From the NCBI GenBank assembly GCA_944386665.1, contig CALXBZ010000001.1, forward strand, positions 1-60,867: 60,867 bases of DNA, in the 5' to 3' direction. Shown one piece after another: positions 834 through 27,705 of this stretch. The notes under the pieces are model-generated. The model was not told the origin of the DNA and did no database searches. It saw nothing but the letters and a program-made list of their open reading frames with translations. The stretch's first letter is position 1, and the number at the start of each line of letters is the position of its first letter. The position numbers were made by a program, and so were the translations under genes. Source of the DNA: an uncultured Clostridia bacterium (GTDB lineage: Bacteria > Bacillota > Clostridia > TANB77 > CAG-508).

Positions 834-863
834 TAAAAAAATCCAACTCTTATTGAGCTGGAT
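834..863 (-). terminator. Rho-independent terminator after the DUF1292 gene
   Basis: Stem ATCCAACTC (841-849) / GAGCTGGAT (855-863) with one mismatch. The plus-strand A-run 835-840 gives a T-run on the minus strand directly after the stem. Confidence 0.5.
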
Positions 864-906
864 TTTATGTTTTAATTTTCGCATACTATAGTAGCTTCTG
901 CAATTA

Positions 907-1224
907 TTAATCTACAAAATCAAATTCGTCTTTGAATTTGTCTTTGAATATTTCAAATACCCTATTTAATGTTTCTTCACTTTCAACACTTACATAAGAC
1001 TCTTCTTCGCTACCATTATCACTATCTTCAACCTTTAATATTACTACTTCTCCTGGTTCTTCTTCTGTTGCTTCAACTGGCAATAATACCACATATTCTT
1101 CATGATCTAATTCTATTAGATCTAAAAATTCAAATCTTGTTTCTTCTCCATTTTCATCATTTAATACTATTATGTTATCTTCTAATTCTTCTCCTGAATT
1201 ATTTGTTATGTTTTCATTATCCAT
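907..1224 (-). CDS. DUF1292/UPF0473 family acidic protein (YrzB-like)
   Basis: Small, very acidic protein with an EFLDLIELDHEEYVVLLP-type core. It sits directly downstream of ireB-ruvX, as in other Firmicutes. Confidence 0.75.
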   Translation of the reverse strand: MDNENITNNSGEELEDNIIVLNDENGEETRFEFLDLIELDHEEYVVLLPVEATEEEPGEVVILKVEDSDNGSEEESYVSVESEETLNRVFEIFKDKFKDEFDFVD

Positions 1225-1294
1225 TTTTTATTTTTCTCCTTTCGATTTTTCATTTTATTTTAAATCTGTATTTCTACAAAATAAAATCATTTTA

Positions 1295-1323
1295 TTTATA
1301 CTATTATCTTGCCTTTTTGTCAA
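1295..1323 (-). promoter_or_regulatory. Candidate sigma-A promoter upstream of the DUF1292 gene
   Basis: On the minus strand: TTGACA (1318-1323), 17-nt spacer, TATAAA (1295-1300). Confidence 0.3.
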
Positions 1324-1363
1324 TTATATTCAGCTATCTATTTGAAATTATATTTGTTTTTAT

Positions 1364-1792
1364 TTAATTATTTTTTTGCATTTTCATATAGGATTCTAGT
1401 ATGTATACTGCTGAAATTGTGTCTACAATGTCTCTTTTTTTGAATTTGTTTACATTTAGAAAGTTCATTGTCTTATGAGCTTCCACAGTTGTTAGTCTTT
1501 CGTCAATTCTAACTATTTTTATTTTATTGAATTTACATTGTAATTTATGTATGAATTTTTCTGTTACCTCAGCTCTTTCTGTTTTTGTGCCATTCATGTT
1601 TATTGGCATTCCTATCACAAATGTGTCTATTTCATTATTATATTTATTTATAATTTCTTCTAAGCGTCTAAGAACTATTTTATCGTTTCCTTGATGATGT
1701 ATTGTTTCTAATCCTTGAGCTGTATATCCTAGTGGGTCTGTAATAGATATACCAACTCTAGCATCTCCATAGTCAATTCCTAATGCTCTCAT
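1364..1792 (-). CDS. ruvX: Holliday-junction-resolvase-like nuclease RuvX/YqgF
   Basis: N-terminus MRALGIDYGDARVGISITDPLG matches the YqgF signature. Size 142 aa. Follows ireB. Confidence 0.9.
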   Translation of the reverse strand: MRALGIDYGDARVGISITDPLGYTAQGLETIHHQGNDKIVLRRLEEIINKYNNEIDTFVIGMPINMNGTKTERAEVTEKFIHKLQCKFNKIKIVRIDERLTTVEAHKTMNFLNVNKFKKRDIVDTISAVYILESYMKMQKNN

Positions 1793-1793
1793 A

Positions 1794-2048
1794 TTACTTG
1801 TCCAATCCTATATATGTTTTTACCATTTCTTCTAAAAGTTCATCTCTTTCAATTTGTCTTATCAAATTTCTTGCATTATTATGACTAGTAATATATGTTG
1901 GGTCTCCTGAAAGTATGTATCCAACTATTTGATTAATTGGATTATATCCTTTTTCCGCCAACGCATTGTAAACTGATTTTAGGGTTTCTTTCGTTCTAGC
2001 ATTTTTCTCTTTTTCAACATTGTAACTTACTGTTTCATCTGTAACCAT
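1794..2048 (-). CDS. ireB: IreB family regulatory phosphoprotein (UPF0297)
   Basis: 84 aa containing [41 protein letters not shown], typical of UPF0297. Adjacent to ruvX. Confidence 0.85.
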
Positions 2049-2058
2049 ATAAAACCTC

Positions 2059-3156
2059 CTATAAATAATTTATATTATTTTCTAATGGATCTGCTGTATC
2101 TAAGTATTCTTCTAATTTCTTAGTAACACCTACTAAAGCAGTTCCTTTGTAATATGTAGCTAATGCAACATTTATTTTTGGGGATACTTTTGTGCTTTCT
2201 CCATGGTAATCTGTAGCAGAAGAAATTTCTAAGCCTTCAATTTCTTTTTTTACAGTTTTCATAAATTCTTCTACTGCTGGTAGCTCTACTCCTGAAAATA
2301 CTATTGCAAATTTTGGTCCCATATATCTAACAAATAGATATTCATTTGACAAATATTGTTTTATTGTTCTACATATTTGTGTTATTACATCGTTTCCAGT
2401 TTTTCTGCTTATAGTTTCATTTATTTCTACTAGATTTATTATTTTAAATAAACATACTGTTGAAGTTGTGTATTTATCAATAGTTTTTTTACCTTCTGTA
2501 TATAAATATTCGGCTGTTTTTAATTCTGAGTATTGATCATCTCTTACAATCTCTTCTACTACAGATTGATTATTTACTGTTTTAAGTACCGACACTATAT
2601 TGTTCTTTACAACTTCTAGTATTGTTGTATCTACATTGTCAAATTCATGTGGCATGCTGCCTTCAATTATCCAATACCCAATATATACGTTATCAATGTA
2701 TAAAGGGAAAAACATTGCAGCTTTTGCTCTTCCAAATTCCATTTTTTGATATGGCAATTTTTCTCCTTCTCTATCAACTGTTATATATTTTGGAATTCCT
2801 GTTTCTATACTGTCTTTAAATACAGGTTCTGATTGTAAGTTTCTTAATACATCCCAATGCTTTATTGCAACATTTGACGCTTTTATTACAAATTCTGCTC
2901 CATTATAAACAACAATTGTAGAATATTTTATGCTATATTTTTCAATTAATATTTCATTTATTAACTTTAGTTTTTCTTCCACACTTGATGTTTCACTAAG
3001 TGTATCCATGAAGTCTTGTAATACATTTAAACTTGTAATTTGCTGATTAATATTATTAAATGCATCTATTTTTTTATGAATTGACATATTGTACATCATT
3101 AATCCAACTATTATTGCTGCAAGCAGTATTATAATTATTACTGACAAAGTTTTCAC
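2059..3156 (-). CDS. Membrane-anchored GAF-like plus degenerate GGDEF domain protein
   Basis: N-terminal TM helix and a central GAF-like region. In the C-terminal domain the GGDEF signature position reads [11 protein letters not shown], and the upstream metal/substrate Asp positions are not conserved. Confidence 0.6.
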
Positions 3157-3168
3157 CCCTTCTTGTTA

Positions 3169-5661
3169 TTAAAAATTGTTTCTCATTCTATTTAATGTTG
3201 CATTCATATTACTGTTAAATGCTGTATTAGTGTTTATTTTTGTATTCTTTTTACTATAATCGTTATAATTTTTATTTTGAGTATATTTAGCATTTCCTGC
3301 TATTAATGGATATACCATATTACTTAATTTTTCCAATGCTTCTAAGAATATTTTTGAATATCCATTTAATGATATTTCGCAATCAACTAGTCTTTCTAAA
3401 TATCTTGCGTATGTTTGATCTTCAAAAGGTATTGTCGTGTATCTTATCTTTTCTCTATCAAATAATGTGTTTATATATGTTGATGCTGGGTCATTATAAC
3501 AAGAAATTCCTCCTATAATCATTTGATCTGTTAATTTTCTTAATCTTAAAGTTTTGTTTATTACTATTCTTAATTTATTTTGATCTAATATATTTTTATG
3601 TTTTAGTTCATTTAAGAAAGCTGTTAATGGTTGTATTGTAAGTATATCGTATGTTTGAACTAAGTAAATTTCTTGAGAATTTGCAAAATAATTCAAGTCT
3701 GTTTCAAAATCACAGTCCAATAATATTAATGAATAGTTTTTAGCTAAAGTTGCCAGTATACTGCTATAATCATTAAAGCTTGGATTTTCTCCTGGTAAAG
3801 TAGTGTATACAGTAAGATTTTTATTTACTTGAATTCCATCAGCTATACCACTTCTTAGTCCATCTATACATCTGAATGATTTTTCCCTTAGGGCATCTTC
3901 ATTTGATGTGTATATATAATATGCATTTTTATTTCTAGTAAGGTCTAAAATTGCTGTATTAATTCCTTTTCCAGATAAGTTTACTGCTAAATTGTTAACT
4001 AAGAATGAAGTACCATTTTTAGATGTTCCAACAAAAGCAACTATTTTTTTATCTCCTGTTATCAAATTTGCTAAGCCAGCATCAGGTCCGTTTACTGGAT
4101 TAACATTTTGGATTTGCGTATTAATTGTATTAGTATATGAATAATTGCTTGTATTTACATATTGATTATTATTTGTATTCTGATATTGTTCTGCTGGTTG
4201 TGAAATATTTTCATTGCTTAAGCCTGGTAATGAAAAATCGTCCTTAACATCAGTTGAAGTAGTGTTTTCTTCTAATCCTGGCAATATGGTATTTTCTTCT
4301 AATCCCGGTAATATAGTGCTTTCATCAGTAGCTGAATCAACATTTATATTATTTAATACATCATTTACATTATCTGGCTCATCATCTGTTAACACATTAG
4401 GTAAAACAAAGTCTTCTAATTCACCGTTTTCTTCATTTGGTTGTTCTGTAACTTTTTTAGGTCTTCCTCTTCCTTTTTTTACTTTATTTTCTTCTGCAGC
4501 AATTTCTTCTGGAGTTCTTTGTTTTTTAGGTCTTCCTCTTCCTTTTTTTGCTTTTTCTTCTTCATTAAATTGTGAAAGAGGATTTTCTATATTTGTATTA
4601 GCAGTTAAGTTATTAATTTGGCTCTCAAATTCATAACTATTATTTAAGTTTTCCAATGAGTTGCTGTTGTTCATTGCCTTATTCATATCATATATGTTAT
4701 CAGGTTTACTTTCGACATTTTCAACACTATTTTGATACTCTGTTTGATTAACAAAGCTTTTCTCAACTGGTTCTTTTTCTACATTTTTATAAGATTTTTT
4801 AACATTTTGCATGTTAATGGTTGATGGAATTACTACTGGTTTAGTTAATTTTGATTTTTGTAATTCTTTATCTATTAACTCAATCTTGTTAACGTTTTTA
4901 CTTTGTATGTTTGTTGCAGTAAATTGTTTATCACTAGCCTTTTGAGCAGCAACTTGTCCTTTTACACTTCCTATCATTACTTGTTGGTATTTAGGACATT
5001 TTTCTTCTAGTACAGCTCTTACATTTAATGGTAAGAATTTTGTAATTAATTTTAGTTGTGTATCTGTATACTGAGTTGCTATTTCTTCAAAACTTTCAAC
5101 ATATTTTGATTCGTCTTTTCCAATTTTTTTGTAATGCCTTATTATATTTTGTATTTCTATTTCACTAACATTATCTGGATCCACTGCCGAATATCCTACA
5201 TCGTCTGCCTCTACTCTATAATAAGTTTTTGCTTCTTTTTTGGTACGAGGTTGATATATAAGTTTACATACATTATCAATTTTTCTATCCGATCCTAAAA
5301 GGACATTATAAACTCCTATTCCAAATAGTTTAACCAAAAGGCTTTCACCTTTTTCTCTTCTATCTGTTGCAATAAGAATTATAGGAATATCTCCCTCTCT
5401 ACTGTTAGATGCTTCATCACTTATGCTGTCTAGTTTATCATATAAAAAATTATCTATCACTTCATAGTTATTGTTTGCAAAAGGCTCTAAATCTTCGCCT
5501 ATAACTATTCTGTCATAGGATTTATCTTTTTGTAATTCCTTTATTATTGCATTGAAAAAATAAACATTTTTCCATGAAATTATTTCTTTATACATTGTCT
5601 GATATTTTTTTATAATTGCCTCTGAAATCTTTTCATTATTTACTGCAAATAAAACCTTCAT
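3169..5661 (-). CDS. TadZ/CpaE-like protein (830 aa): receiver-like N-domain, low-complexity linker with two AT-hooks, degenerate ParA/MinD-like C-domain
   Basis: The N-terminus (MKVLFAVNNEK...IPIILIATD) looks like a CheY-like fold. The Asn/Glu-rich linker holds KKGRGRPKK twice. The C-terminal part has KKIVAFVGTSKNGTSFLVNNLAVNLSGKGINTAILD and YSLILLDCD, i.e. P-loop NTPase topology without the KGGxGK[ST] lysines. Confidence 0.6.
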   Translation of the reverse strand: MKVLFAVNNEKISEAIIKKYQTMYKEIISWKNVYFFNAIIKELQKDKSYDRIVIGEDLEPFANNNYEVIDNFLYDKLDSISDEASNSREGDIPIILIATDRREKGESLLVKLFGIGVYNVLLGSDRKIDNVCKLIYQPRTKKEAKTYYRVEADDVGYSAVDPDNVSEIEIQNIIRHYKKIGKDESKYVESFEEIATQYTDTQLKLITKFLPLNVRAVLEEKCPKYQQVMIGSVKGQVAAQKASDKQFTATNIQSKNVNKIELIDKELQKSKLTKPVVIPSTINMQNVKKSYKNVEKEPVEKSFVNQTEYQNSVENVESKPDNIYDMNKAMNNSNSLENLNNSYEFESQINNLTANTNIENPLSQFNEEEKAKKGRGRPKKQRTPEEIAAEENKVKKGRGRPKKVTEQPNEENGELEDFVLPNVLTDDEPDNVNDVLNNINVDSATDESTILPGLEENTILPGLEENTTSTDVKDDFSLPGLSNENISQPAEQYQNTNNNQYVNTSNYSYTNTINTQIQNVNPVNGPDAGLANLITGDKKIVAFVGTSKNGTSFLVNNLAVNLSGKGINTAILDLTRNKNAYYIYTSNEDALREKSFRCIDGLRSGIADGIQVNKNLTVYTTLPGENPSFNDYSSILATLAKNYSLILLDCDFETDLNYFANSQEIYLVQTYDILTIQPLTAFLNELKHKNILDQNKLRIVINKTLRLRKLTDQMIIGGISCYNDPASTYINTLFDREKIRYTTIPFEDQTYARYLERLVDCEISLNGYSKIFLEALEKLSNMVYPLIAGNAKYTQNKNYNDYSKKNTKINTNTAFNSNMNATLNRMRNNF
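4264..4317 (-). repeat. In-frame 27-nt tandem duplication within the 830-aa gene
   Basis: Units 4264-4290 and 4291-4317 differ at 4 positions. They encode TILPGLEEN twice, with a third degenerate SLPGLSNEN copy nearby. Confidence 0.85.
4453..4549 (-). repeat. Exact 28-nt direct repeat encoding the two AT-hook motifs
   Basis: TTTTTTAGGTCTTCCTCTTCCTTTTTTT occurs at 4453-4480 and 4522-4549, 69 nt apart start to start. Each copy encodes KKGRGRPKK on the minus strand. Confidence 0.9.
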
Positions 5662-5665
5662 TAGT

Positions 5666-6067
5666 TTAACCCCTCCAACCTTTTACTACTATTGCGAAAA
5701 CAAGTGGTAACACCTGGCATATTACTACAATTGTAACACTTGTAATCATTAGTGCAAAACCTTTATCTCTTACGTCTAGTTTTCTTATTCCAATTATGTA
5801 TTGATATATTGCTGCTATTATAATAGCCACAAATCCAAAAGGTATACTATAAATTCTTATTCTATTTAACAAATATGCTGTTAATCCATACGTGTCTGAA
5901 CCATAGGCATCTCTATATTCTTGTAAAGTTTTTAGTTCTTTGTCTTTTATCTCTATGAGTTTTCCTGTTGTATCTTGTGCAACTTCACTTACTTCATTTC
6001 CAGCATACACAGTTGTACACCCCATTAAACAAAATAAAATAGATATTACTGCCACTACTTTTTTCAT
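5666..6067 (-). CDS. Putative lipoprotein with C-terminal TM helices (133 aa)
   Basis: Signal peptide ending in the lipobox LMGC, with two hydrophobic helices in the C-terminal half. First gene after the mutS terminator. Confidence 0.55.
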   Translation of the reverse strand: MKKVVAVISILFCLMGCTTVYAGNEVSEVAQDTTGKLIEIKDKELKTLQEYRDAYGSDTYGLTAYLLNRIRIYSIPFGFVAIIIAAIYQYIIGIRKLDVRDKGFALMITSVTIVVICQVLPLVFAIVVKGWRG

Positions 6068-6138
6068 ATAATTATCCCTTTCTTTATTTTTCTGCTTTTT
6101 TATAAAACATTATACTTATAACATTTTACACTAGAATG

Positions 6139-6171
6139 AAAAAAATAGCAAGAAAATACTTGCTATTTTTT
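6139..6171 (-). terminator. Rho-independent terminator after mutS
   Basis: Stem ATAGCAAG (6145-6152) / CTTGCTAT (6159-6166) flanked by an A-run and a T-run. Confidence 0.6.
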
Positions 6172-8859: not shown

Positions 8860-9750
8860 TTATTGCTCCCTTCCGTCTGCTCCATCTAAGTTCTGTTTTG
8901 TATCTTTTTCTTTTAATTCTTGTAATCTTTTTAATTCTTCTAGTTCTAATAATCTTCTTCTAATTGTACTAATTCCTACTCCTAATTCTTCTGCAATCTG
9001 TTGTTTATTTTTTCCTTCTTTTGATAATTTTTCGACTTTCATCTTGAATTCTTGTAATTGTTTATGTCTTTTCTCACTATCAGTTTCATTGTCCTCTATA
9101 GTTACAAATGTCATATTCTTTTTTATTTCAGTAACAATTCTTCCATATAGTCTTTTTTCAGTAGCACTTAATTTTTCATGTCTCATCTTTTTTTCCGCAC
9201 ATATTTTAGCAATATCATATAATCTTTGATCTTGTTCTTCCTCACTTTGGCCTAATTTTTCTAATTCTCTTGATACTGTTCTAATTGGAATTCCATATAA
9301 TTGTGCCATTTCCGATTGTGACATATCTTGTTCTATAAGTTCTATAAATAGCCTTCTAAAATTAATCCCAGAATAATCTCCTCTTTGGCTTTTATATCTT
9401 ATATAATATTGAATGTACTCTGGTGATGAATTTGCTAATTCGTCAATCTTTCTTTGTAGAGTTTCTCTATCAATTCCATATTTTTCTGAAGTTTGCCTTG
9501 TAGATAGCTCTCCTTTTAATATTTTAATAATTATTTCTTTTAGATTGTCATCTATTTTTATTGTTTTATTTGCTTTATTTCCTAATAGTATTTGTTCTAA
9601 TTGTTCTTGTTCCTCTTGATTGCATATTCTCATTATAGCTCTTTTTAAAGCATCTCTATCAGTATTAAGATTAATACTTAACTGTCTTAAACTAACCTGT
9701 CCTGATAGTAATTGTTCTTTTGCTTTTTCTATTGTTTCATACGAAATCAT
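8860..9750 (-). CDS. Protein built of four helix-turn-helix-like repeats (296 aa)
   Basis: Four spaced modules: LRQLSINLNTDRDALKRAI, TRQTSEKYGIDRETLQRKI, QSEMAQLYGIPIRTVSRELEKL and KQQIAEELGVGISTIRRRLLEL. Its stop lies 2 nt from the mutS start. Confidence 0.6.
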   Translation of the reverse strand: MISYETIEKAKEQLLSGQVSLRQLSINLNTDRDALKRAIMRICNQEEQEQLEQILLGNKANKTIKIDDNLKEIIIKILKGELSTRQTSEKYGIDRETLQRKIDELANSSPEYIQYYIRYKSQRGDYSGINFRRLFIELIEQDMSQSEMAQLYGIPIRTVSRELEKLGQSEEEQDQRLYDIAKICAEKKMRHEKLSATEKRLYGRIVTEIKKNMTFVTIEDNETDSEKRHKQLQEFKMKVEKLSKEGKNKQQIAEELGVGISTIRRRLLELEELKRLQELKEKDTKQNLDGADGREQ

Positions 9751-14052: not shown

Positions 14053-15795
14053 TTAATACCCAAAATATCCATTTGTTACGTATAGATTATATCTGGACCT
14101 TGCTAAAGCTGTTAAATATAGTTGTCGTAAGTTTGTTCCTCCAAGATTAGTTACTTGCACTTTATTTCCATTTTCATCTATTACGTTATCTGCTATTATA
14201 TTATCTGTGCTATAAGTTTTCGAGGCAGTTACTATGCAATCATAACAAGGAGTATATGCTTCTGGATAATAATAAGCATATTTTCCTGAATCTGCTCCCA
14301 ATATTTGACTATGAGCATTTGAATCTTCTCCTGTAATTGAAACAGTTTTTCTTTCAAATTCACTAGATGGATATGCTCCTTCTATATTCACAGAGTTGCT
14401 TTTTAAATTTTCTATTAATTTTAAACACCCCGGTTTATGATATTCACCATTACTGTCAACTATGAAAATAGAATCATTTCCTACTGTTTCTTGGTTTGTA
14501 TTATTTGAAACAATACAATAGTTATTATAAACCTTTGCTCCGATAGGAACACCTTCAAAGAAGGTTAGCATACATACATTATTTTGTATTTTATCCCATT
14601 CTTCTTCTCCTAATTGTGGCATTGAAAATTCATATCCTATAACAGTATGTGATGTAAATGTTGCTATCGCTGATAATAAATTAGTCTCTATTGATTTTCT
14701 TATTACATTCATTCTATGTTCATTAAATACAGAATCGGTTTTTATAGGATTGTTTTCATCACTAATATCAAATATTTTTTCGTTTCCTATATTTGTTGCA
14801 AAATCTGTAATTGCATTTCCATCCACATCAACTGCATCATTTGGTGTAATATTTCCTAAATATTTATCTACCCAATTTGTAAAGCTAATTGGATCACCAT
14901 TAAAATCTGTAGTTAGCGGATCTAATGATTCAGAATAGTATTTTGTTGCACTGTCACTGCATAAGTATAATTGTCCATTAATATTTCTCAAATGATTATT
15001 TAGATATTCTATATCTGAAATAGTTGTTACATAATTCTTTTTATATTCACTGCTATAGTAAAAATATCTCTTTTTTCCTTTTTCTCCAGTATCGTTTATA
15101 TCCCCCGAAAAAGCATCTGGATTGTTGTCTTTATATATTTTTTGGCTATTGTATACAATATATTGAAAATTTTCTGTAGTTGGCTCTACATTTACATCAT
15201 CACTTAATATTATTAAATTTTCTCTTAATATTTCATCTGCAATAACACTTCTATCTGAATCTGCAATCAAATGTCCCGTCTTTATTACATAATGCCCCTT
15301 TACTGTTCCTATTATGGTTATTGTGTTATCTAATGTATAATTTACTACAAAATCCGTATTGTTACCTGTTTTGTATCTACAAGAATAATAATTAAAAGGT
15401 TTTAGCCCATATCTATATTCACCATATTCAGTATCATAAAAATTAGAATATATATAATATCCATCATATAAAGTAAATAATATTGCTGGTACATATGGTT
15501 GCAAATCTTCTTTACTATATCCCGAAACTCCCATGTTTGTACCAAGTGAATTAAAGAAAACATTTATGGATGCTTCTATATCCCTTATTTTCGAATTTGA
15601 AATTGTTGAATACATATTATTTGCAGTATTTAGTTGAAATGCTTTAATTCCATCATAAGTAGCATTTATTAATATATTGTTATATTTAGTCTGATTTTCT
15701 ATCGTCTTAATATGCATATTTATATATACCGACAATACCAATGATATTGGAACTATTATTATAACAAAAATTATAATTATATGTTGTAGTTTCAT
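14053..15795 (-). CDS. Large secreted or anchored protein (580 aa), last gene of the Tad-like locus
   Basis: A single N-terminal hydrophobic helix (IIIIFVIIIVPISLVLSVYI), then a long Asn/Tyr-rich ectodomain. Co-directional with the locus. Confidence 0.55.
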   Translation of the reverse strand: MKLQHIIIIFVIIIVPISLVLSVYINMHIKTIENQTKYNNILINATYDGIKAFQLNTANNMYSTISNSKIRDIEASINVFFNSLGTNMGVSGYSKEDLQPYVPAILFTLYDGYYIYSNFYDTEYGEYRYGLKPFNYYSCRYKTGNNTDFVVNYTLDNTITIIGTVKGHYVIKTGHLIADSDRSVIADEILRENLIILSDDVNVEPTTENFQYIVYNSQKIYKDNNPDAFSGDINDTGEKGKKRYFYYSSEYKKNYVTTISDIEYLNNHLRNINGQLYLCSDSATKYYSESLDPLTTDFNGDPISFTNWVDKYLGNITPNDAVDVDGNAITDFATNIGNEKIFDISDENNPIKTDSVFNEHRMNVIRKSIETNLLSAIATFTSHTVIGYEFSMPQLGEEEWDKIQNNVCMLTFFEGVPIGAKVYNNYCIVSNNTNQETVGNDSIFIVDSNGEYHKPGCLKLIENLKSNSVNIEGAYPSSEFERKTVSITGEDSNAHSQILGADSGKYAYYYPEAYTPCYDCIVTASKTYSTDNIIADNVIDENGNKVQVTNLGGTNLRQLYLTALARSRYNLYVTNGYFGY

Positions 15796-15814
15796 TAATC
15801 GCTTTACCTTTCTA

Positions 15815-15862
15815 TTATAAAAGGCAGCTCAGAACTAGCTTTTAATAGTTCATAGAGCTGCC
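15815..15862 (-). terminator. Intra-operon hairpin (attenuator-like) between the 177-aa and 580-aa genes
   Basis: GGCAGCTC (15823-15830) / GAGCTGCC (15855-15862) with an inner GAACTA/TAGTTC extension. Followed on the minus strand by TTTTAT. Confidence 0.45.
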
Positions 15863-15875
15863 AAATTTATAAAAT

Positions 15876-16409
15876 CTATTTTGTACCATTTACAGTAACT
15901 ATTCCTGCATGTTGTGCAGCAATTTGATATGTATCATTTCCTGCAATTCTGTACAAGAAATTCCTTAATATTTGAGCTATTGTAGTATTTGTATTTTTTA
16001 CAACGACGGAGATTCTATCTCCTTCTTTTAATGTTAGTCTGTTATTAGTAGAGTCATTAGTTAAGATATCTTCTAATTGGCTTGTGTATAAATTATAATA
16101 TACATTTTCTCCAATCTTGGTTGTCTCTGCTTGCGTGGTTTTCACTCCTGGATTTTCATCTAAAATTTGAGCCTGCATTTCAACATCAAAAGAGTTCCCT
16201 GTTGCAGTTATCGTTTGTACAAATTTATCATAATCATCCAATGTTAATTTGCCTGTAGTTCTAACCTTATCCACAAAATCGGTAGTAGCTGTCTGTACTG
16301 ATAATTGAGATATATCGTCAGTTCTTTCTGAAATTGACATCAAAGGAAAAATGAACATTAATATAGCTGCTAAAAATATTGCAATAATTGTAATAAAACT
16401 ATCTCCCAT
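15876..16409 (-). CDS. Minor-pilin-like protein (177 aa)
   Basis: N-terminus MGDSFITIIAIFLAAILMFIFPLMSI is a single hydrophobic helix, followed by a Thr-rich globular part. Position matches that of TadE/F-like genes. Confidence 0.5.
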   Translation of the reverse strand: MGDSFITIIAIFLAAILMFIFPLMSISERTDDISQLSVQTATTDFVDKVRTTGKLTLDDYDKFVQTITATGNSFDVEMQAQILDENPGVKTTQAETTKIGENVYYNLYTSQLEDILTNDSTNNRLTLKEGDRISVVVKNTNTTIAQILRNFLYRIAGNDTYQIAAQHAGIVTVNGTK

Positions 16410-16448
16410 TTTTCTATTTCCTTTCTTTTTTTACTAATATACATTTCT

Positions 16449-17156
16449 TTATTTTATAAGAATGTATGTAATTATTCTCTTTTTAGTTGTTTTATTTCCT
16501 ATAACTTCATCTTCATTTTCATCAGTATTTATTGTAGTAATCTCTCCTATTTGCTCTACAAATTTATTATTTCTTTTGCTTAACGGATTATTGGCATAAT
16601 TAATAGTGCTAGCTCCCGTCATAAAAGGTATTTTATATTCTCCACCACCAAAAATTGCGTCCAAATGTAATTTAACTTGTTCTGCATTTCCTACCCAAGG
16701 TTCATTTCTTTGAGTTTCTTCTATTATATCAAAAGAACATATTCTTAGCTCAGGATTAGTACTATCTTTATTACTAGTTCCATCAAAATCGTTTATATAA
16801 TTTTTATTCCAATTTTTCGGGTTTGTTGTAGTACTATATATTGGAAGTGGTTCTAACTCTGATAGTGTTCCAGTAGAAGAATCGTATTTTCCTTGTTTAA
16901 ATACAACTTTATATCTTTCTTTATTATATTTATATAAAGTTGGTATGATAGTCTCATAACTAACAATTCTGTTACCAGAAGGATCCTCTGGTAAATCATA
17001 TCTTGTGTAGTCATAATATGCCATTTTGTCTGAACTTTGTAAAACTATCTCTGAAGTTGACCTTGCCTTTGAAAAAAAGGCAATTGAAAGTGATAGAGCT
17101 AGAGTTAGTAGCATAACGGCAAATGCCATTTTTAAAGCTTCTACTGCATTTTCCAT
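16449..17156 (-). CDS. Pilin-like protein (235 aa) with MENAVEAL N-terminus
   Basis: N-terminus MENAVEALKMAFAVMLLTLALSLSIAFF is shared with three neighbouring paralogs. Confidence 0.55.
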   Translation of the reverse strand: MENAVEALKMAFAVMLLTLALSLSIAFFSKARSTSEIVLQSSDKMAYYDYTRYDLPEDPSGNRIVSYETIIPTLYKYNKERYKVVFKQGKYDSSTGTLSELEPLPIYSTTTNPKNWNKNYINDFDGTSNKDSTNPELRICSFDIIEETQRNEPWVGNAEQVKLHLDAIFGGGEYKIPFMTGASTINYANNPLSKRNNKFVEQIGEITTINTDENEDEVIGNKTTKKRIITYILIK

Positions 17157-17183
17157 ATTCTTTTACTCTCTTATTTTTTTAAA

Positions 17184-17609
17184 TTATTTTACTTGTTCTA
17201 TATTACATTTTGTTATATATCCACTCTTGTTATAAGCAAATGTAACACTATATGTTCTTCCTGCTTTTAATGTGTTTGTAGCAATTGTAGCTTCTGAATC
17301 AGGTTCAAATACAGTTCCCTCAGCTATAGCTCCTCCATCTATTGTTAAAGTAACTTGTTGAGAAAAATCATCTGTATTAACTCTGTTGTGTGAAGCAATA
17401 GCTTCATATAATGCTCTTGCATTAGTTCCTGAAATTGTTCCTTCATAATTTTTAAATTTTTGGTTGTAGGCATTTGCCTTTTCCGAATCCATATTTGCTC
17501 CCTCCATTGCACCTGAAGCTTGTTGGTATATAAACATACCTAATCCTATAATTAAAATTGATAATAGTATAGCTCCTGCTATAATTAATGCTTTACTTGC
17601 ATTCTCCAT
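17184..17609 (-). CDS. Pilin-like protein (141 aa) with MENASKAL N-terminus; candidate major subunit
   Basis: MENASKALIIAGAILLSILIIGLGMFIY. Strong SD (AAGGAGGAAAAAATT ATG). It is the smallest paralog. Confidence 0.6.
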   Translation of the reverse strand: MENASKALIIAGAILLSILIIGLGMFIYQQASGAMEGANMDSEKANAYNQKFKNYEGTISGTNARALYEAIASHNRVNTDDFSQQVTLTIDGGAIAEGTVFEPDSEATIATNTLKAGRTYSVTFAYNKSGYITKCNIEQVK

Positions 17610-17663
17610 AATTTTTTCCTCCTTAGATTATTTATATATAATTTTTAAAATTTTATAACTTGT

Positions 17664-18101
17664 TTATATTTGTTCAAAGTACATACTTTTCACATTGTTT
17701 GTTTTTGTATGATATTCAATATTGGTGCATTTAAAGCTTAATGCTCCAAAATTTAACCAAAATTGTTGCATACCCACTTCATTTATTCTTTCCATAGTTA
17801 TAATTTGATCTAACTCTTTAAATTTTAGTTCTATTTCTATGGAATTTTCAAAGTTATCTATGTAATTTCCTTTTTCATCTTTTTCTACTTGATTATGTTC
17901 ATTACTATCAATAGCTTTATTTATTATAGATATAACATCTGTACCTAATATTTCTTTATTATAAAAACTTTCATAGCTTTTATTTTCTTTAACAGCTTGC
18001 TCTATAGCTACTTTTTTATAGTAAATTCTATAACCTATAATTAATGCTATTGTTAAAAATATTGTTGATATTAAAATTACAATTTTTTTCATAATTTTCA
18101 T
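17664..18101 (-). CDS. Pilin-like or accessory protein (145 aa) with C-terminal FKCT motif
   Basis: N-terminal helix KKIVILISTIFLTIALIIGY. C-terminus SFKCTNIEYHTKTNNVKSMYFEQI resembles the neighbouring paralogs. Confidence 0.5.
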   Translation of the reverse strand: MKIMKKIVILISTIFLTIALIIGYRIYYKKVAIEQAVKENKSYESFYNKEILGTDVISIINKAIDSNEHNQVEKDEKGNYIDNFENSIEIELKFKELDQIITMERINEVGMQQFWLNFGALSFKCTNIEYHTKTNNVKSMYFEQI

Positions 18102-18155
18102 TCTTTCTTAATTATAACATTTAAATTTTTTATATGCAATAATTAATTTTAATTT

Positions 18156-18668
18156 TTATAATTGTTCAAATGTAACACTGCATACTCTTTTACTGTCTGG
18201 ATTTATTATTATATTAGTACATTTAAAATAAGTTACAACATATTTATTATTAACTTCTTCACCTGAATATTTCTTTAAGAATTCTTTATAATCCTCTAAT
18301 GAACTATCCTCAAAATTATTAATAGTATGTGATCCTTGTTTGACTATTACTTTTACATAATAAAATCCATTATTTTGATCTGCAATCGTATAGTCGTATT
18401 TACTATTGTTTTCTTTAGCTGTATTAGCAATAGTTACTACATCTTGAGCTCTGCAAGTATTTCTCCATTCTCCTGTACTATCATCTTGATAAGATTCATA
18501 TTTAATAAATTGTGCATTAAATTCGTTAATATCCTTTTCTGATAATTTTTTTGACATGTCTGCACTAAAATCCCCAAAAACAGTAAATAGATATACTCCT
18601 AAAGATAGTAATAGTACTCCAACTAACACAGTAGCAGCCATTAATAAGGCTTTACTCGCATTTTCCAC
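18156..18668 (-). CDS. Pilin-like protein (170 aa) with MENASKAL N-terminus and FKCT C-terminus
   Basis: GTG start preceded by AGGAGG. N-terminus (M)ENASKALLMAATVLVGVLLLSLGVYLF. C-terminus YFKCTNIIINPDSKRVCSVTFEQL. Confidence 0.6.
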   Translation of the reverse strand: MENASKALLMAATVLVGVLLLSLGVYLFTVFGDFSADMSKKLSEKDINEFNAQFIKYESYQDDSTGEWRNTCRAQDVVTIANTAKENNSKYDYTIADQNNGFYYVKVIVKQGSHTINNFEDSSLEDYKEFLKKYSGEEVNNKYVVTYFKCTNIIINPDSKRVCSVTFEQL

Positions 18669-18686
18669 TATTTTTTCCTCCTAAAT

Positions 18687-26244: not shown

Positions 26245-26760
26245 TTAGTTTCTGTAGTAGTTATTCCAATTGCCGTTATAATTACAAATACCACTACGTC
26301 CGTTATTGCAGTTGTTATTTCTATTTCGACAGATGTTACAATTGTTATTACAATTATTGATTCCATTGCGTATAATATTGCAATTGCAACCGTTGCCGTC
26401 TTGGTTGTTATCTTCTGCATCATCATTATTATCATTTTCTAAAATCTTATTTGTTCTTAGTACATTTGTATTTACTCTTCTCGCATTTATATTCTGCGTA
26501 TTTATATTTCTAAATGTTATGCCATCTTCTGATATGATTTTACATATAAATTTTATTATTAAGGCTGTAATAAAAGAAATTATTGTATATGCAATTGCTA
26601 ACACTAAGAATTCTATATTTCCTATTGTAAATGTCAAAATTAGAAAAATCGCAAAAAATGTTGACGCTACTAGCCATGGACAATTAAGTATTTTTTGAAG
26701 CACTATTGATAATATGATAACAGCCAATGGTATTGCAAAAAATAATAGTAACAAATTCAT
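26245..26760 (-). CDS. Membrane protein with Asn/Cys-rich C-terminal tail (171 aa)
   Basis: About three TM helices, then DGNGCNCNIIRNGINNCNNNCNICRNRNNNCNNGRSGICNYNGNWNNYYRN. Confidence 0.55.
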   Translation of the reverse strand: MNLLLLFFAIPLAVIILSIVLQKILNCPWLVASTFFAIFLILTFTIGNIEFLVLAIAYTIISFITALIIKFICKIISEDGITFRNINTQNINARRVNTNVLRTNKILENDNNDDAEDNNQDGNGCNCNIIRNGINNCNNNCNICRNRNNNCNNGRSGICNYNGNWNNYYRN

Positions 26761-26875
26761 ATTTATTTCTCCTTTTTATTATTGGATTTTATATATAATA
26801 TGATTTGTTACTATTAAAAGTTACACTAAGATATCATTCTTTATGTTTATTTTTTATTTAAGATAATAATATTTA

Positions 26876-27613
26876 TTAATTATATAATACTTCCACTAAA
26901 TATAATCCATGTGCTGGCAAAGTCTTTCCTGCTTTTTGTCTATCTTTTGAATCTATTATATTTTTAATCTCATCAGGTGCTATTTTCCCCATTCCCACTT
27001 CTAATAAAGTTCCAGATATTATTCTAACCATATTATATAAAAAACCATTTCCTGTGAGTTCTATTATTATTCTTTCTCCCTCTTTTTTTACAATTGCTTT
27101 ATAAATGCTTCTAACACTATTTTTTCCACTAGTTCCACTAGATTTAAATGCTTTAAAATCATGTACTCCTTCAAAATATTTTGTTGCCTCTTTCATTTTT
27201 TCTACATCTAGTTCTATTGGAAAACAATATTCTAGGTTTCTATATATAGCTGTTCCAGATTTTGAATTATTAATAATATATCTATATGTTTTTTGTTTTG
27301 CATTATATCTACTATGGAATCTTTCATCTACTACTTCTGCTTTTTTTATAATAATACTATTTTTTAATTGTGAATTTATTGCAAGCGGTAATTTTTCTAT
27401 GGAAATGTTTGAATTAGTTTTAAAATTTGCTATTTGTCCTAATGCATGAACCCCCGCATCTGTTCTTCCCGAGCCAATAAGATCTACTTCTTCTTTCGTT
27501 ATATTATAAATTGCCTTTTCTATTTCGCCTTGTATATTTAATTTATTAGGCTGTTTTTGCCACCCGTTAAAGTCCTTTCCGTCGTATTCTATTGTTAGTT
27601 TTATATTTCTCAT
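26876..27613 (-). CDS. truA: tRNA pseudouridine(38-40) synthase TruA
   Basis: IEYDGKDFNGWQKQ and GSGRTDAGVHALGQ motifs. Start set at the second ATG (27613), preceded by GGGAGA. The track ORF extends to 27625. Confidence 0.9.
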   Translation of the reverse strand: MRNIKLTIEYDGKDFNGWQKQPNKLNIQGEIEKAIYNITKEEVDLIGSGRTDAGVHALGQIANFKTNSNISIEKLPLAINSQLKNSIIIKKAEVVDERFHSRYNAKQKTYRYIINNSKSGTAIYRNLEYCFPIELDVEKMKEATKYFEGVHDFKAFKSSGTSGKNSVRSIYKAIVKKEGERIIIELTGNGFLYNMVRIISGTLLEVGMGKIAPDEIKNIIDSKDRQKAGKTLPAHGLYLVEVLYN

Positions 27614-27705
27614 ATTATCTCCCATAAATATTTTAATTCAGACTAGTATTTTTCACTCATATTAGTCTGAATTTATTTTTTGCTTTTTCTTATATTTTTT
27701 ATTTA

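What the first reader, a model, noticed from the sequence alone, without database searches (positions are those of the whole stretch)
3169..5661. TadZ-like protein carrying two canonical AT-hooks and in-frame repeats
The 830-aa protein has three parts: an N-terminal receiver-like domain, a ~350-residue Asn/Glu/Gln-rich linker, and a degenerate ParA/MinD-like C-domain. Receiver plus ATPase domain is the TadZ/CpaE architecture.

Inside the linker the motif KKGRGRPKK occurs twice, 23 residues apart, encoded by an exact 28-nt DNA repeat (4453-4480 and 4522-4549). GRGRP flanked by Lys/Arg is the AT-hook core known from HMGA-type minor-groove binders of AT-rich DNA (established knowledge). It is uncommon in bacteria. 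A 27-nt tandem duplication (TILPGLEEN twice) lies just downstream.

A positioning ATPase-like scaffold tethered to an AT-rich nucleoid through AT-hooks would be an unusual way to localise an envelope machine. The exact nucleotide identity of the two hook-coding units suggests recent duplication or gene conversion.
Basis: partly seen in the sequence, partly recalled or inferred. Interest (0 to 1): 0.7.

Follow-up and report, generated by a model that had tools for sequence, protein, structure and literature searches.

The report
ParA/MinD-like scaffold with AT-hook linker
An unannotated protein conserved across hundreds of uncultured, AT-rich gut Clostridia joins a MinD/ParA-type positioning domain lacking the usual ATP-binding lysines to a eukaryote-style (HMGA-like) pair of DNA "AT-hooks", suggesting a fixed tether to the chromosome in place of the ATP-switched DNA binding such proteins normally use.

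Summary
ORF 3169-5661(-) encodes 830 aa with KKGRGRPKK twice, 23 residues apart, on an exact 28-nt repeat, plus a TILPGLEEN tandem.

The hooks are not incidental. All 200 close homologues examined carry exactly two RGRP hooks inside an otherwise hypervariable, disordered linker. RGRP hooks and the acidic LPG[FL][ED][ED] motif occur nowhere else in 1.44 Mb from these genomes.

The C-domain is a ParA/MinD fold (AF2 pLDDT 89; Foldseek probability 1.0 to ParA, FlhG, Soj and MinD) with a non-canonical P-loop, GTSKNGTS. The "receiver" N-domain is unproven.

The family is closed and unannotated, and it has two clades:
- Clade A is compact and heads Tad-like pilus clusters.
- Clade B, which includes this gene, sits in a conserved operon: small membrane protein, this gene, TM-degenerate GGDEF, IreB, RuvX, DUF1292.

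The Tad-like locus at 14-26 kb is real but is not linked in 79 of 80 other genomes, and it has its own ParA-like genes.

The hooks are ancient and evolve in concert (gene conversion). They are not a recent duplication.

Best reading: a nucleoid-anchored ParA/MinD-type scaffold with an HMGA-like cassette. The cargo is unknown. I rate it a new variant of a known kind.

The parts
3169..5661 (-). Whole gene: 830-aa cytoplasmic protein with no predicted TM segment. It is a member of clade B of an unannotated family built from an N-module plus a ParA/MinD domain.
5212..5661 (-). N-terminal alpha/beta sub-domain (aa 1-150), highly conserved. It shows a (beta-alpha)5-like pattern and may be a pseudo-receiver, but this is unproven.
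   Evidence: Conservation. No Pfam or PDB hit. hhalign against a receiver profile gives E=0.03-0.04, in register but not significant. Homologous to the N-module of the Tad-cluster protein WP_017826339.1 (prob 97.9%).
4789..5211 (-). Conserved helical sub-domain of the N-module (aa 151-291), ending in the invariant motif LTKPVVIP.
   Evidence: (pLDDT about 80 for aa 167-230)
4090..4788 (-). Hypervariable, disordered, HMGA-like linker (aa 292-524). The charge layout is acidic (-9), then a basic hook module (+9), then a strongly acidic segment (-21).
   Evidence: (pLDDT below 35)
4522..4548 (-). AT-hook 1, KKGRGRPKK (aa 372-380).
   Evidence: (Pfam AT_hook 13.9 bits, below threshold)
4453..4479 (-). 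AT-hook 2, KKGRGRPKK (aa 395-403). Its DNA is identical to that of hook 1 over 28 nt.
4264..4317 (-). Tandem TILPGLEEN x2 (aa 449-466): two copies of the family-specific acidic linear motif [DE]-T-[IV]-L-P-G-[FL]-[ED]-[ED].
4213..4239 (-). Third LPG motif (DFSLPGLSN, aa 475-483).
3226..4089 (-). ParA/MinD-fold (SIMIBI) domain, aa 525-812.
   Evidence: AF2 pLDDT 89.4, pTM 0.83. Foldseek against PDB: ParA, FlhG, Soj, MinD, FleN, BcsQ and NifH at probability 1.0. 53 of 54 members give sub-threshold PF01656 hits.
4006..4029 (-). Non-canonical P-loop G545-T-S-K-N-G-T-S552 in the beta1-alpha1 loop. Both lysines of the deviant Walker A motif are missing. The sequence is invariant as F[VI]GT[STP]KNG[TI]SF in 79 of 80 genomes.
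3172..3225 (-). Conserved C-terminal tail (aa 813-830, FNSNMNATLNRMRNNF). It is predicted to be helical and is a candidate amphipathic membrane- or partner-binding helix.
   Evidence: The hydrophobic moment is 0.35, similar to MinD membrane-targeting sequences but not above shuffles. Relatives end in RRGLFG or NKFFGRRK.
5666..6067 (-). Co-transcribed small membrane protein (133 aa): signal/lipobox-like N-terminus plus two TM segments, 4 nt upstream of the gene. It is conserved in 79 of 80 genomes and in hook-less relatives.
2059..3156 (-). Co-transcribed protein with an N-terminal TM segment and a degenerate GGDEF domain (RYMGPKF in place of RxGGDEF). It is conserved in 79 of 80 genomes and in the oral short-linker relative.
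907..2048 (-). Downstream operon genes IreB (1794-2048), RuvX (1364-1792) and DUF1292 (907-1224). This is the family-wide conserved context of clade B.
838..866 (-). Terminator-like hairpin after the DUF1292 gene, the likely end of the operon. This is a pattern match only.
6123..6171 (-). Region between mutS and the operon: a symmetric hairpin (6140-6171) and a promoter-like site (6151-6123). These are pattern matches only.

Best explanation
The gene encodes a cytoplasmic three-part scaffold.

(1) The C-terminal ParA/MinD-fold domain keeps the P-loop glycines, the Ser/Thr after the loop, and the invariant Asp residues at the ends of strands beta2 and beta(LILLDCD). It lacks both Walker-A lysines. 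It is therefore most likely a nucleotide-binding or purely structural dimerisation module, not a fast ATPase. It ends in a conserved helix that could dock on the membrane or on a partner.

(2) The conserved N-terminal alpha/beta plus helical module is a protein-interaction module shared with the first gene of Tad-like pilus clusters.

(3) The disordered linker is an HMGA-like cassette: two AT-hooks followed by acidic LPG[FL][ED][ED] repeats.

Proposed mechanism. The hooks insert into the minor groove of the 27%-GC chromosome and anchor the protein, probably as a dimer with four hooks, on the nucleoid. This replaces the ATP-dependent non-specific DNA binding of classical ParA proteins. The ParA/MinD domain and tail engage the two co-transcribed membrane proteins. 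The protein thereby couples or positions a membrane-associated complex relative to the nucleoid. The acidic repeats may mask or tune the hooks, as the acidic tail does in HMGA proteins.

Shown: the fold of the C-domain, conservation of the hooks, motifs and operon, the clade structure, and concerted evolution of the hooks.

Inferred: DNA binding, loss of ATPase activity, membrane and partner contacts, and the identity of the cargo.
For: - Hooks: exactly two in 120 of 120 and 80 of 80 homologues down to 46% identity, at 20-47 aa spacing, in an otherwise unalignable linker. RGRP hooks occur in no other ORF in 1.44 Mb from these genomes.
- LPG motif: 143 copies in family genes against 0 in 531,000 aa of other ORFs. 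It is found only in hook-bearing members (26/53 against 0/23).
- Charge layout of the linker is -9 / +9 / -21. This matches the HMGA hallmark of hooks plus a flanking acidic region (PMC2919716). The acidic tail of HMGA2 binds its hooks (PMC4482583).
- C-domain: AF2 pLDDT 89.4, Foldseek probability 1.0 to ParA, FlhG, Soj and MinD, PF01656 sub-threshold in 53 of 54 members. Across 106 diverse members G545, G550, D573, D649, Q669, D672 and N702 are invariant.
- Operon with two membrane proteins conserved in 79 of 80 genomes, with intergenic gaps of 4-12 nt.
- Relatives end in MinD-like K/R-GLFG or KFFGRRK tails.
- No TM segment or signal peptide in the protein itself.
Against: - No experiment exists for any member; all source names are 'hypothetical protein'.
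- About 30% of full-length family clusters (23 of 76) lack hooks. Some of those have long E/R/K/Q helical linkers and others E/K/D/N-rich linkers. DNA binding is therefore not the ancestral or universal function of the family.
- The tail's amphipathicity is not statistically distinctive (25% of shuffles reach it). One clade-B member (P0425) has no tail.
- Pfam's AT_hook model scores below its cut-off (13.9 against 17.4 bits).
- Nucleotide binding is untested.
- The cargo is unknown.
Confidence: 0.45

Rival explanations
1. The protein is the TadZ/CpaE-type localisation factor, encoded in trans, of the Tad-like machine at 14-26 kb. The AT-hooks would serve to place that envelope machine relative to the nucleoid.
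For: - A compact homologue of both modules (WP_017826339.1: N-module prob 97.9%, C-domain prob 93.9%) is the first gene of Tad-like clusters on C. botulinum and C. beijerinckii plasmids and in metagenome contigs.
- Those clusters are collinear and homologous with window 14053-26065: ATPase 37% (E 4e-115), polytopic protein 24% (E 1.5e-43), SAF/CpaB-like 32% (E 1.5e-17).
- The window's Tad-like locus has no gene carrying the N-module. The AT-hook protein is the only window homologue of that first gene.
- TadZ also lacks the canonical P-loop lysine; its consensus is [KR]GGxGx[ST] (bioRxiv 10.64898/2026.07.08.737194).
Against: - The gene falls in a separate clade: 40-120 bits to the Tad-cluster clade against 180-590 bits within its own.
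- Clade B is embedded in the IreB-RuvX-DUF1292 operon in 80 of 80 hook-bearing genomes, 3 of 3 hook-less relatives and an oral short-linker relative.
- Tad-like genes lie within 10 kb in at most 1 of 80 other genomes.
- The window's Tad-like locus has its own two small ParA/MinD-like ORFs between the cpaB-like and tadA-like genes.
- TadZ (3fkq) is only rank 50 in Foldseek.
- No curated CpaE/TadZ model hits either clade.
Confidence: 0.2
2. The hooks do not bind DNA in vivo. The basic RGRP units and the acidic LPG repeats would instead be an electrostatic self-association or partner-binding (or RNA-binding) cassette in a spacer. The protein would be a membrane-proximal scaffold of a cell-envelope pathway acting with the two membrane proteins and IreB.
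For: - Hook-less relatives keep the same operon and terminal domains. The core function therefore does not need DNA binding.
- Hooks and acidic LPG motifs co-occur strictly, as expected for mutually interacting elements. HMGA2 hooks bind its own acidic tail (PMC4482583).
- PBP5-type carboxypeptidase genes lie nearby in several contexts, and IreB is in the operon.
Against: - The 9-residue core [KR][KR]GRGRP[KR]K is conserved far beyond what charge alone requires, including an invariant Gly-Arg-Pro.
- Hook-bearing loci are very AT-rich: mean GC 27.5% against 31-35% for two hook-less loci (n=2 only, so this is weak).
- The protein is cytoplasmic with no TM segment.
Confidence: 0.17
3. The protein is an architectural or transcriptional regulator. 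The HMGA-like cassette would remodel AT-rich promoter DNA, as in myxobacterial CarD. The MinD-like domain would act as a FleN-type regulator of a transcription factor.
For: - CarD is the precedent for a prokaryotic HMGA-like domain fused to a protein-interaction domain (PMC2919716).
- FleN and FlhG are among the top structural matches.
Against: - No transcription-factor partner or RNAP-interaction domain was detected.
- The conserved neighbours are membrane proteins and housekeeping genes.
- In a 27%-GC genome AT-hooks offer little site specificity (inference).
Confidence: 0.08
4. The hooks and repeats are incidental low-complexity sequence produced by slippage in a disordered, AT-rich linker, with no function.
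For: - The linker is hypervariable in length and sequence.
- Repeat copy number varies: 1-8 LPG motifs, and one fragment has 6 hooks.
Against: - 200 of 200 close homologues retain two hooks with an invariant RGRP core, while the surrounding sequence is unalignable.
- The differences between the two TILPGLEEN copies are all synonymous.
- The motifs are absent from all other ORFs examined.
Confidence: 0.02

Closest known systems
TadZ/CpaE (ParA/MinD-like localisation factor of Tad/Flp pili; structure 3fkq)
   Same: - Two-module plan: an N-terminal non-phosphorylatable alpha/beta module plus an atypical ParA/MinD domain that lacks the canonical P-loop lysine.
- The family's sister clade (for example WP_017826339.1) occupies the first position of Tad-like clusters.
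- 3fkq is a significant Foldseek match (E 4.6e-6).
   Different: - The Walker-A-like [KR]GGxGx[ST] motif is absent; this protein has GTSKNGTS.
- The gene is not encoded in a tad locus but in the IreB-RuvX operon.
- It is about 830 aa rather than about 350-400 aa, because of a 233-aa HMGA-like linker.
- TadZ is not the nearest structural neighbour (rank 50).
- The receiver fold of the N-module was not demonstrated.
MinD / ParA (Soj) / FlhG-FleN deviant-Walker-A ATPases
   Same: - Same fold (TM about 0.7 normalised to the targets).
- Conserved Asp residues after beta2 and at the Walker-B-like strand.
- A C-terminal helix in the position of the MinD membrane-targeting sequence.
- The general logic of a positioning protein that uses the nucleoid or the membrane as a surface.
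   Different: - Only 11-18% identity, and Pfam PF01656 is below threshold.
- Both Walker-A lysines are lost.
- DNA contact would come from AT-hooks in a linker, not from the ATP-dimer surface.
- No MinC/MinE/ParB-type partner gene is adjacent.
HMGA proteins and myxobacterial CarD (HMGA-like C-terminal domain)
   Same: - Multiple R-G-R-P cores flanked by Lys/Arg, 20-30 residues apart, in an intrinsically disordered segment with a flanking highly acidic region.
- Like CarD, the cassette is fused to a bacterial protein-interaction domain.
- From my memory, not checked here: KRGRGRPRK, common in this family, is identical to the first hook of human HMGA1a.
   Different: - Two hooks rather than three or four.
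- The cassette is internal, between two globular domains.
- The acidic part carries a specific repeated LPG[FL][ED][ED] motif.
- It occurs in Firmicutes rather than myxobacteria.
- There is no RNAP-binding CarD_CdnL domain.
Noc / RacA-type DNA-membrane or DNA-pole tethers of Firmicutes (comparison from established knowledge, not tested here)
   Same: The proposed logic is the same: simultaneous DNA binding and membrane or partner binding to couple the nucleoid to the envelope.
   Different: There is no ParB-like or HTH DNA-binding domain. The protein would show no sequence-specific sites, only AT-hook minor-groove binding. The fold and ancestry are different.

Membership tests
TadZ/CpaE | ParA/MinD-like domain | tested here: met
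   AF2 model with pLDDT 89.4. Foldseek against PDB gives probability 1.0 to ParA/MinD-family structures, and TadZ 3fkq is at rank 50 with E 4.6e-6.
TadZ/CpaE | Walker-A-like motif [KR]GGxGx[ST] (consensus quoted in bioRxiv 10.64898/2026.07.08.737194) | tested here: not met
   The motif here is G-T-S-K-N-G-T-S, invariant across 80 genomes. It shares with TadZ only the missing P-loop Lys and the final Ser/Thr.
TadZ/CpaE | N-terminal atypical receiver domain | tested here: inconclusive
   There is no Pfam Response_reg hit in 55 members and no PDB hit by profile. hhalign against a receiver profile gives E=0.041 and 0.027. The alignment is in register, but controls give 0.06-0.65. No reliable 3-D model of this part exists.
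TadZ/CpaE | Encoded in a tad locus beside tadA/cpaF ('uniquely found in Tad systems') | tested here: not met
   Eighty of 80 genomes and all deeper clade-B contexts have the IreB-RuvX-DUF1292 operon instead. The sister clade A does meet this feature.
TadZ/CpaE | Needed for polar or site-specific assembly of the pilus machine | not testable with these tools
   This requires genetics and cell biology.
ParA/MinD (deviant Walker A, SIMIBI) | Fold and strand order | tested here: met
ParA/MinD (deviant Walker A, SIMIBI) | Deviant Walker A xKGGxxK[ST] with signature and P-loop lysines | tested here: not met
   The motif is GTSKNGTS, with Thr where the P-loop Lys belongs and no signature Lys at position 2. 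The clade-A relative keeps GKS.
ParA/MinD (deviant Walker A, SIMIBI) | Family HMM above the curated threshold (PF01656 CbiA) | tested here: not met
   The window C-domain scores 13.6 bits against a cut-off of 25.4. Fifty-three of 54 members are sub-threshold, with a best E of 2.8e-6. The clade-A homologue passes at 32.2 bits.
ParA/MinD (deviant Walker A, SIMIBI) | Switch-I and Walker-B aspartates | tested here: inconclusive
   D573, D649, D651 and N702 are invariant and sit at the C-terminal ends of predicted strands beta2, LILLDC and RIVINK. No residue-level superposition or nucleotide docking was done.
MinD specifically | C-terminal amphipathic membrane-targeting helix | tested here: inconclusive
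   The tail is conserved and predicted to be helical. Relatives end in RRGLFG or KFFGRRK.
MinD specifically | MinC/MinE partners | not tested
   None is adjacent, and whole genomes were not available.
AT-hook / HMGA-like domain | R-G-R-P core flanked by Lys/Arg, in multiple copies | tested here: met
   There are two copies, conserved in 200 of 200 close homologues.
AT-hook / HMGA-like domain | Pfam PF02178 above the gathering score | tested here: not met
   13.9 bits against 17.4. The model is very short.
AT-hook / HMGA-like domain | Flanking highly acidic region and intrinsic disorder (hallmarks per PMC2919716) | tested here: met
   Net charge is +9 for the hook module and -21 for the next 118 residues. 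pLDDT is below 35 across the linker.
AT-hook / HMGA-like domain | [quoted passage not shown] | not testable with these tools
   This needs EMSA, footprinting or NMR.
Response-regulator receiver (CheY-like) | Pfam Response_reg match, acidic pocket, phospho-acceptor Asp and conserved Lys | tested here: not met
   There is no HMM hit. In the weak hhalign register, E56/D57 falls near the acceptor position, but the N-terminal acidic pair (NNE) and the Lys are absent.

The most novel reading that the evidence does not exclude
A lineage of very AT-rich, uncultured gut Clostridia has converted a TadZ/MinD-type positioning protein into a constitutive nucleoid tether. It did this by inserting a eukaryote-style HMGA cassette (two AT-hooks plus acidic LPGFEE repeats) between the two globular modules, while both Walker-A lysines are absent. 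ATP-switched DNA binding, the hallmark of ParA-type systems, would thus be replaced by minor-groove hooks that are regulated, if at all, by the acidic repeats. This would be a new mechanism of chromosome-envelope coupling. It would also be the second independent prokaryotic HMGA-like domain after myxobacterial CarD. The two hook units are kept alike by ongoing gene conversion.
Probability: 0.35. Interest if true: 0.75.

Novelty: new variant of a known kind. Interest (0 to 1): 0.6.

Why it matters
ParA/MinD-type proteins organise bacterial cells by cycling on and off the nucleoid or membrane under ATP control. A conserved member that lacks the catalytic lysines yet carries canonical AT-hooks would show a different, fixed way to use the chromosome as a scaffold.

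It would extend HMGA-type DNA binding to Firmicutes. A 2010 paper described this as known only in myxobacterial CarD among prokaryotes.

The family is present in at least 357 species-level genomes of abundant but uncultured human and animal gut bacteria and has no annotation at all. Naming its domains, its two clades and its conserved operon gives annotators and experimentalists a concrete handle. The predictions can be tested cheaply in vitro (AT-selective DNA binding, nucleotide binding, membrane binding).

The analysis also exposes an essentially unannotated Tad-like pilus system shared by these gut bacteria and Clostridium botulinum/beijerinckii plasmids.

Tried and rejected
- Direct Pfam, NCBIfam and PDB sequence searches with the whole protein found nothing usable.
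- Full-length AF2 with a shallow 20-sequence alignment gave a poor model (pLDDT 45.7). I did not use it for fold claims about the N-module.
I rebuilt the alignment from permitted proteins.
- PDB profile searches with both domain alignments gave no significant hit.
- The receiver test of the N-module by hhalign, run twice with growing profiles, stayed non-significant. I report it as inconclusive, not as support.
- The hydrophobic moment of the tail was not distinctive against shuffles.
- Window ORF 27706-28677 had hits at the family gene's position in 2 loci. It is CdaA and is unrelated to the N-module.
- Literature searches for AT-hook with ParA, MinD or Clostridium found no description of such a protein. 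The TadZ structure paper (PMC3272108) is not held.
- I tried to prove genome-level co-occurrence with the Tad-like locus through shared contigs.
- There is no relative in phage records.


Full report
**1. Observation**

The minus-strand ORF 3169-5661 encodes 830 aa. KKGRGRPKK occurs at residues 372-380 and 395-403. The two coding units (4522-4549 and 4453-4480) are identical over 28 nt and 93% identical over 42 nt. With the window's own codon usage, identical DNA for an identical 9-residue peptide has a probability of about 0.02. TILPGLEEN is duplicated in tandem (nt 4264-4317). The two 27-nt copies differ at four positions, all synonymous, and a third LPGL motif follows. The window has 26-30% GC throughout.

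**2. The hooks are conserved, clade-wide features**

The protein has thousands of unnamed homologues. All 120 listed carry two [KR][KR]GRGRP[KR]K units exactly 23 residues apart.

A scan of one genome per species found relatives in 357 species-level genomes. The best 80 are all uncultured gut 'Clostridia' or Clostridium sp. MAGs, such as Clostridium sp. CAG:245. In all 80, at 46-69% identity, the orthologue has exactly two RGRP hooks 20-47 residues apart.

In the alignment, the hooks and the short segment between them are the main alignable islands in an otherwise hypervariable linker. AF2 gives that linker pLDDT below 35. In 1.44 Mb of DNA from these genomes, no other ORF has such a hook.

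The linker's charge layout is acidic (-9), basic hook module (+9), strongly acidic (-21). This matches the HMGA hallmark of AT-hooks plus a flanking acidic region (PMC2919716).

A second family-specific linear motif, [DE]-T-[IV]-L-P-G-[FL]-[ED]-[ED], occurs 1-8 times in 80 of 81 proteins. I counted 143 copies inside family genes and none in 531,000 aa of other ORF translations. Among 76 full-length cluster representatives, it occurs only in hook-bearing proteins (26/53 against 0/23). Hooks and acidic motifs therefore form one co-evolving cassette.

**3. Concerted evolution, not recent duplication**

Both hooks are present in every close homologue, so the duplication is old. Yet the two units within one genome resemble each other more than orthologous units do between genomes.

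| Comparison (flanks only) | nt identity | aa identity |
|---|---|---|
| Hook 1 vs hook 2, same genome | 0.66 | 0.52 |
| Orthologous hooks, between genomes | 0.55-0.56 | 0.36-0.38 |

Hook 1 against hook 1 between genomes is no closer than hook 1 against hook 2 (0.56 against 0.55). A permutation test gave p below 2e-4.

Among 34 genomes whose two 9-residue peptides are identical, 5 also have identical DNA. One metagenomic fragment has six hooks at a 25-residue period. This is the signature of gene conversion or repeated re-duplication.

**4. The C-terminal domain**

Pfam, NCBIfam and PDB sequence searches do not recognise it. With a 106-sequence alignment of permitted proteins, AF2 gave a confident model of aa 525-830 (pLDDT 89.4, pTM 0.83).

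Foldseek against the PDB returned ParA (5tvk), FlhG (4rz3), Soj (2bek), MinD (4v02, 1g3q), FleN, BcsQ, NifH and HypB. All had probability 1.00, TM about 0.7 normalised to the target, and 11-18% identity. TadZ (3fkq) came at rank 50. Scanned one by one, 53 of 54 family C-domains give sub-threshold hits to PF01656.

The loop between beta1 and alpha1 reads G545-T-S-K-N-G-T-S552. This is invariant in the hook clade and reads G-A-N-K-S-G-T-T in distant members. Both lysines of the deviant Walker A are missing. G545, G550, D573, D649, Q669, D672 and N702 are invariant over 106 diverse sequences.

I infer a nucleotide-binding or structural dimerisation module with little or no ATPase activity. This was not tested.

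The last 16-18 residues (F..SNMN.TLNKM[KR]NN[FY]) are conserved and predicted to be helical. The hydrophobic moment of 0.35 equals that of MinD membrane-targeting sequences, but it is not above shuffles. Relatives end in RRGLFG, KGKGLFG or NKFFGRRK, which look like Firmicute amphipathic membrane tails. That last comparison rests on my own knowledge.

**5. The N-terminal module**

Residues 1-291 are the best-conserved part of the protein, but they match nothing in Pfam or the PDB. It aligns in register (LFAV to LVVD; VIGED to VISDW; ILIAT to LMVTA). The scores are only E=0.041 and 0.027, against controls of 0.06-0.65. 'Receiver-like' is therefore possible but not shown.

**6. Family structure and genomic context**

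An exhaustive profile search of 1.84 billion cluster representatives found only 722 matches (253 at E of 1e-30 or better). This is a closed family that does not merge with ordinary ParA/MinD proteins at the sequence level.

The gene sits in a tight co-directional block, with gaps of 4-12 nt on either side of it:
- a 133-aa membrane protein (79/80 genomes)
- this gene (80/80)
- a protein with an N-terminal TM segment and a degenerate GGDEF domain, RYMGPKF (79/80)
- IreB (77/80)
- RuvX (77/80)
- DUF1292 (75/80)

The mutS gene upstream is linked in only 11 of 80 genomes.

Three distant relatives (P0234, P0246, P0252) have no hooks, and the two whose sequences I read (P0234, P0246) have long E/R/K/Q helical linkers. 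All three still sit in [small protein]-gene-IreB-RuvX-DUF1292. In the two with retrievable DNA (P0234, P0246), the small protein is homologous to the window's 133-aa protein (38-41% identity, E 1e-19 to 1e-24).

A short-linker oral member (P0425, 553 aa) has the same operon. It includes a homologue of the GGDEF-like protein (33% identity, E 3e-58).

**7. The Tad connection**

tblastn against plasmids hit 'hypothetical proteins' on C. botulinum and C. beijerinckii plasmids. One of them, WP_017826339.1 (546 aa), has these properties:
- It is homologous to both modules (N: prob 97.9%, E 4e-13; C: prob 93.9%, E 1.5e-7).
- It passes PF01656.
- It keeps GKS in its P-loop, has a short linker without hooks, and ends in NKFFGRRK.
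- It is the first gene of a cluster: SAF/CpaB-like, a 277-aa ORF, a T2SS/T4P/T4SS ATPase, a 669-aa polytopic protein, a pilin-like ORF and a cell-wall hydrolase. The same layout recurs in metagenome contigs.

The window's 14053-26065 region is the collinear homologue of that cluster:

| Component | Identity | E-value |
|---|---|---|
| ATPase | 37% | 4e-115 |
| Polytopic protein | 24% | 1.5e-43 |
| SAF/CpaB-like | 32% | 1.5e-17 |
| ~280-aa ORF | 21% | 4e-4 |
| Pilin-like ORFs | 27-30% | 1e-6 to 5e-4 |

However, four points weaken a functional link to the locus:
- Summed BLAST scores separate a Tad-cluster clade A from the IreB-operon clade B, which contains our gene (40-120 bits between clades, 180-610 within).
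- The window's Tad-like locus has its own two small ParA/MinD-like ORFs in the TadZ slot.
- The locus lies within 10 kb of the gene in at most 1 of 80 other genomes.
- No curated CpaE/TadZ model recognises either clade.

The TadZ motif [KR]GGxGx[ST] (bioRxiv 10.64898/2026.07.08.737194) is not present. TadZ does share the missing P-loop lysine.

**8. Mechanism**

This is the best-supported explanation; its steps are inferred unless marked as shown. The protein is a cytoplasmic scaffold. Its HMGA-like cassette anchors it in the minor groove of the AT-rich chromosome. Its ParA/MinD-fold domain and tail dimerise and contact the membrane or the two co-encoded membrane proteins. Its N-module binds a further partner. 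In this way it couples or positions a membrane complex relative to the nucleoid. The hooks would replace the ATP-dependent DNA binding of classical ParA. The acidic LPG repeats may mask the hooks, as the acidic tail of HMGA2 binds its own hooks (PMC4482583).

Because 23 of 76 family clusters lack hooks, DNA anchoring is a lineage-specific addition to an older two-module scaffold. The cargo is unknown. The Tad-like machine is one candidate (rival 1, 0.2), and a cell-envelope complex linked to IreB is another.

**9. Novelty and verdict**

No source names any member. No paper in the library describes a ParA/MinD-type protein with AT-hooks. A 2010 paper called CarD the only prokaryotic HMGA-like protein. 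I rate this a new variant of a known kind: a ParA/MinD-superfamily scaffold of TadZ-like ancestry with an HMGA-like insertion and a lysine-less P-loop. Interest is 0.6. It is surprising to specialists and testable in vitro. It is limited by the lack of any experimental system, the unproven DNA binding and the unknown cargo.

Noticed in passing
window 14053-26065 (- strand): An almost entirely unannotated Tad/type-IV-filament-like locus. Its genes, in order: a CpaB/SAF-like ORF, two small degenerate ParA/MinD-like ORFs (231 and 280 aa), a TadA/CpaF-family ATPase with a 340-aa N-terminal extension, a 667-aa polytopic platform-like protein, four pilin-like ORFs starting MENA[STV]KAL, and two larger N-terminally anchored proteins. 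It is collinear with clusters on C. botulinum and C. beijerinckii plasmids. The ATPase is at least 90% identical across the 120 best-matching proteins, which come from gut metagenome and MAG assemblies.
   Followed up: partly
window 2059-3156 (-): A protein with an N-terminal TM segment and a degenerate GGDEF domain: RYMGPKF replaces RxGGDEF, and no RxxD I-site is seen. It is conserved next to the AT-hook gene in 79 of 80 genomes and in an oral relative (33% identity, same RYMGP.F). It is probably a catalytically dead scaffold or receptor domain.
   Followed up: partly
window 5666-6067 (-): A 133-aa protein with a lipobox-like N-terminus (LMGC) and two further hydrophobic segments. It ends 4 nt upstream of the AT-hook gene's start codon. 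It is homologous to the small upstream gene in hook-less relatives whose extracytoplasmic acidic segment is much longer.
   Followed up: partly
window 8860-9750 (-): A 296-aa ORF made of several helix-turn-helix units (many HTH Pfam families hit at 2-3 places), wedged between the miaB-like gene and mutS. It has no counterpart in any of the 80 related loci, and in a related genome miaB abuts mutS directly. It looks like a lineage-specific insertion.
   Followed up: no
P0212, P0234, P0246 (distant family members); loci L083, L084: The linker between the same two terminal modules is replaced by about 220-290 residues of E/R/K/Q/A-rich repeats (for example EEARRQAEEERAKQEAE), which look like a single-alpha-helix or coiled-coil spacer. 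K/R-GLFG motifs appear at the C-terminus and, in P0246, also just after the N-module.
   Followed up: partly
P0196 (618-aa metagenomic fragment): It carries six consecutive hooks ([KR][KR]GRGRPRK[IL]) at an exact 25-residue period. This shows that hook copy number can expand by tandem duplication.
   Followed up: no
window 6140-6171: A symmetric 13-bp-stem hairpin flanked by A-runs and T-runs lies between mutS and the operon. It could act as a bidirectional terminator, and it overlaps a promoter-like site at 6151-6123. This is a pattern match only.
   Followed up: no
window 26245-28677 (-): The genes directly upstream of the Tad-like locus are ordinary: DUF2651, TruA and the diadenylate cyclase CdaA (DAC plus CdaA_N). 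These fix the locus boundary at about 26065.
   Followed up: yes
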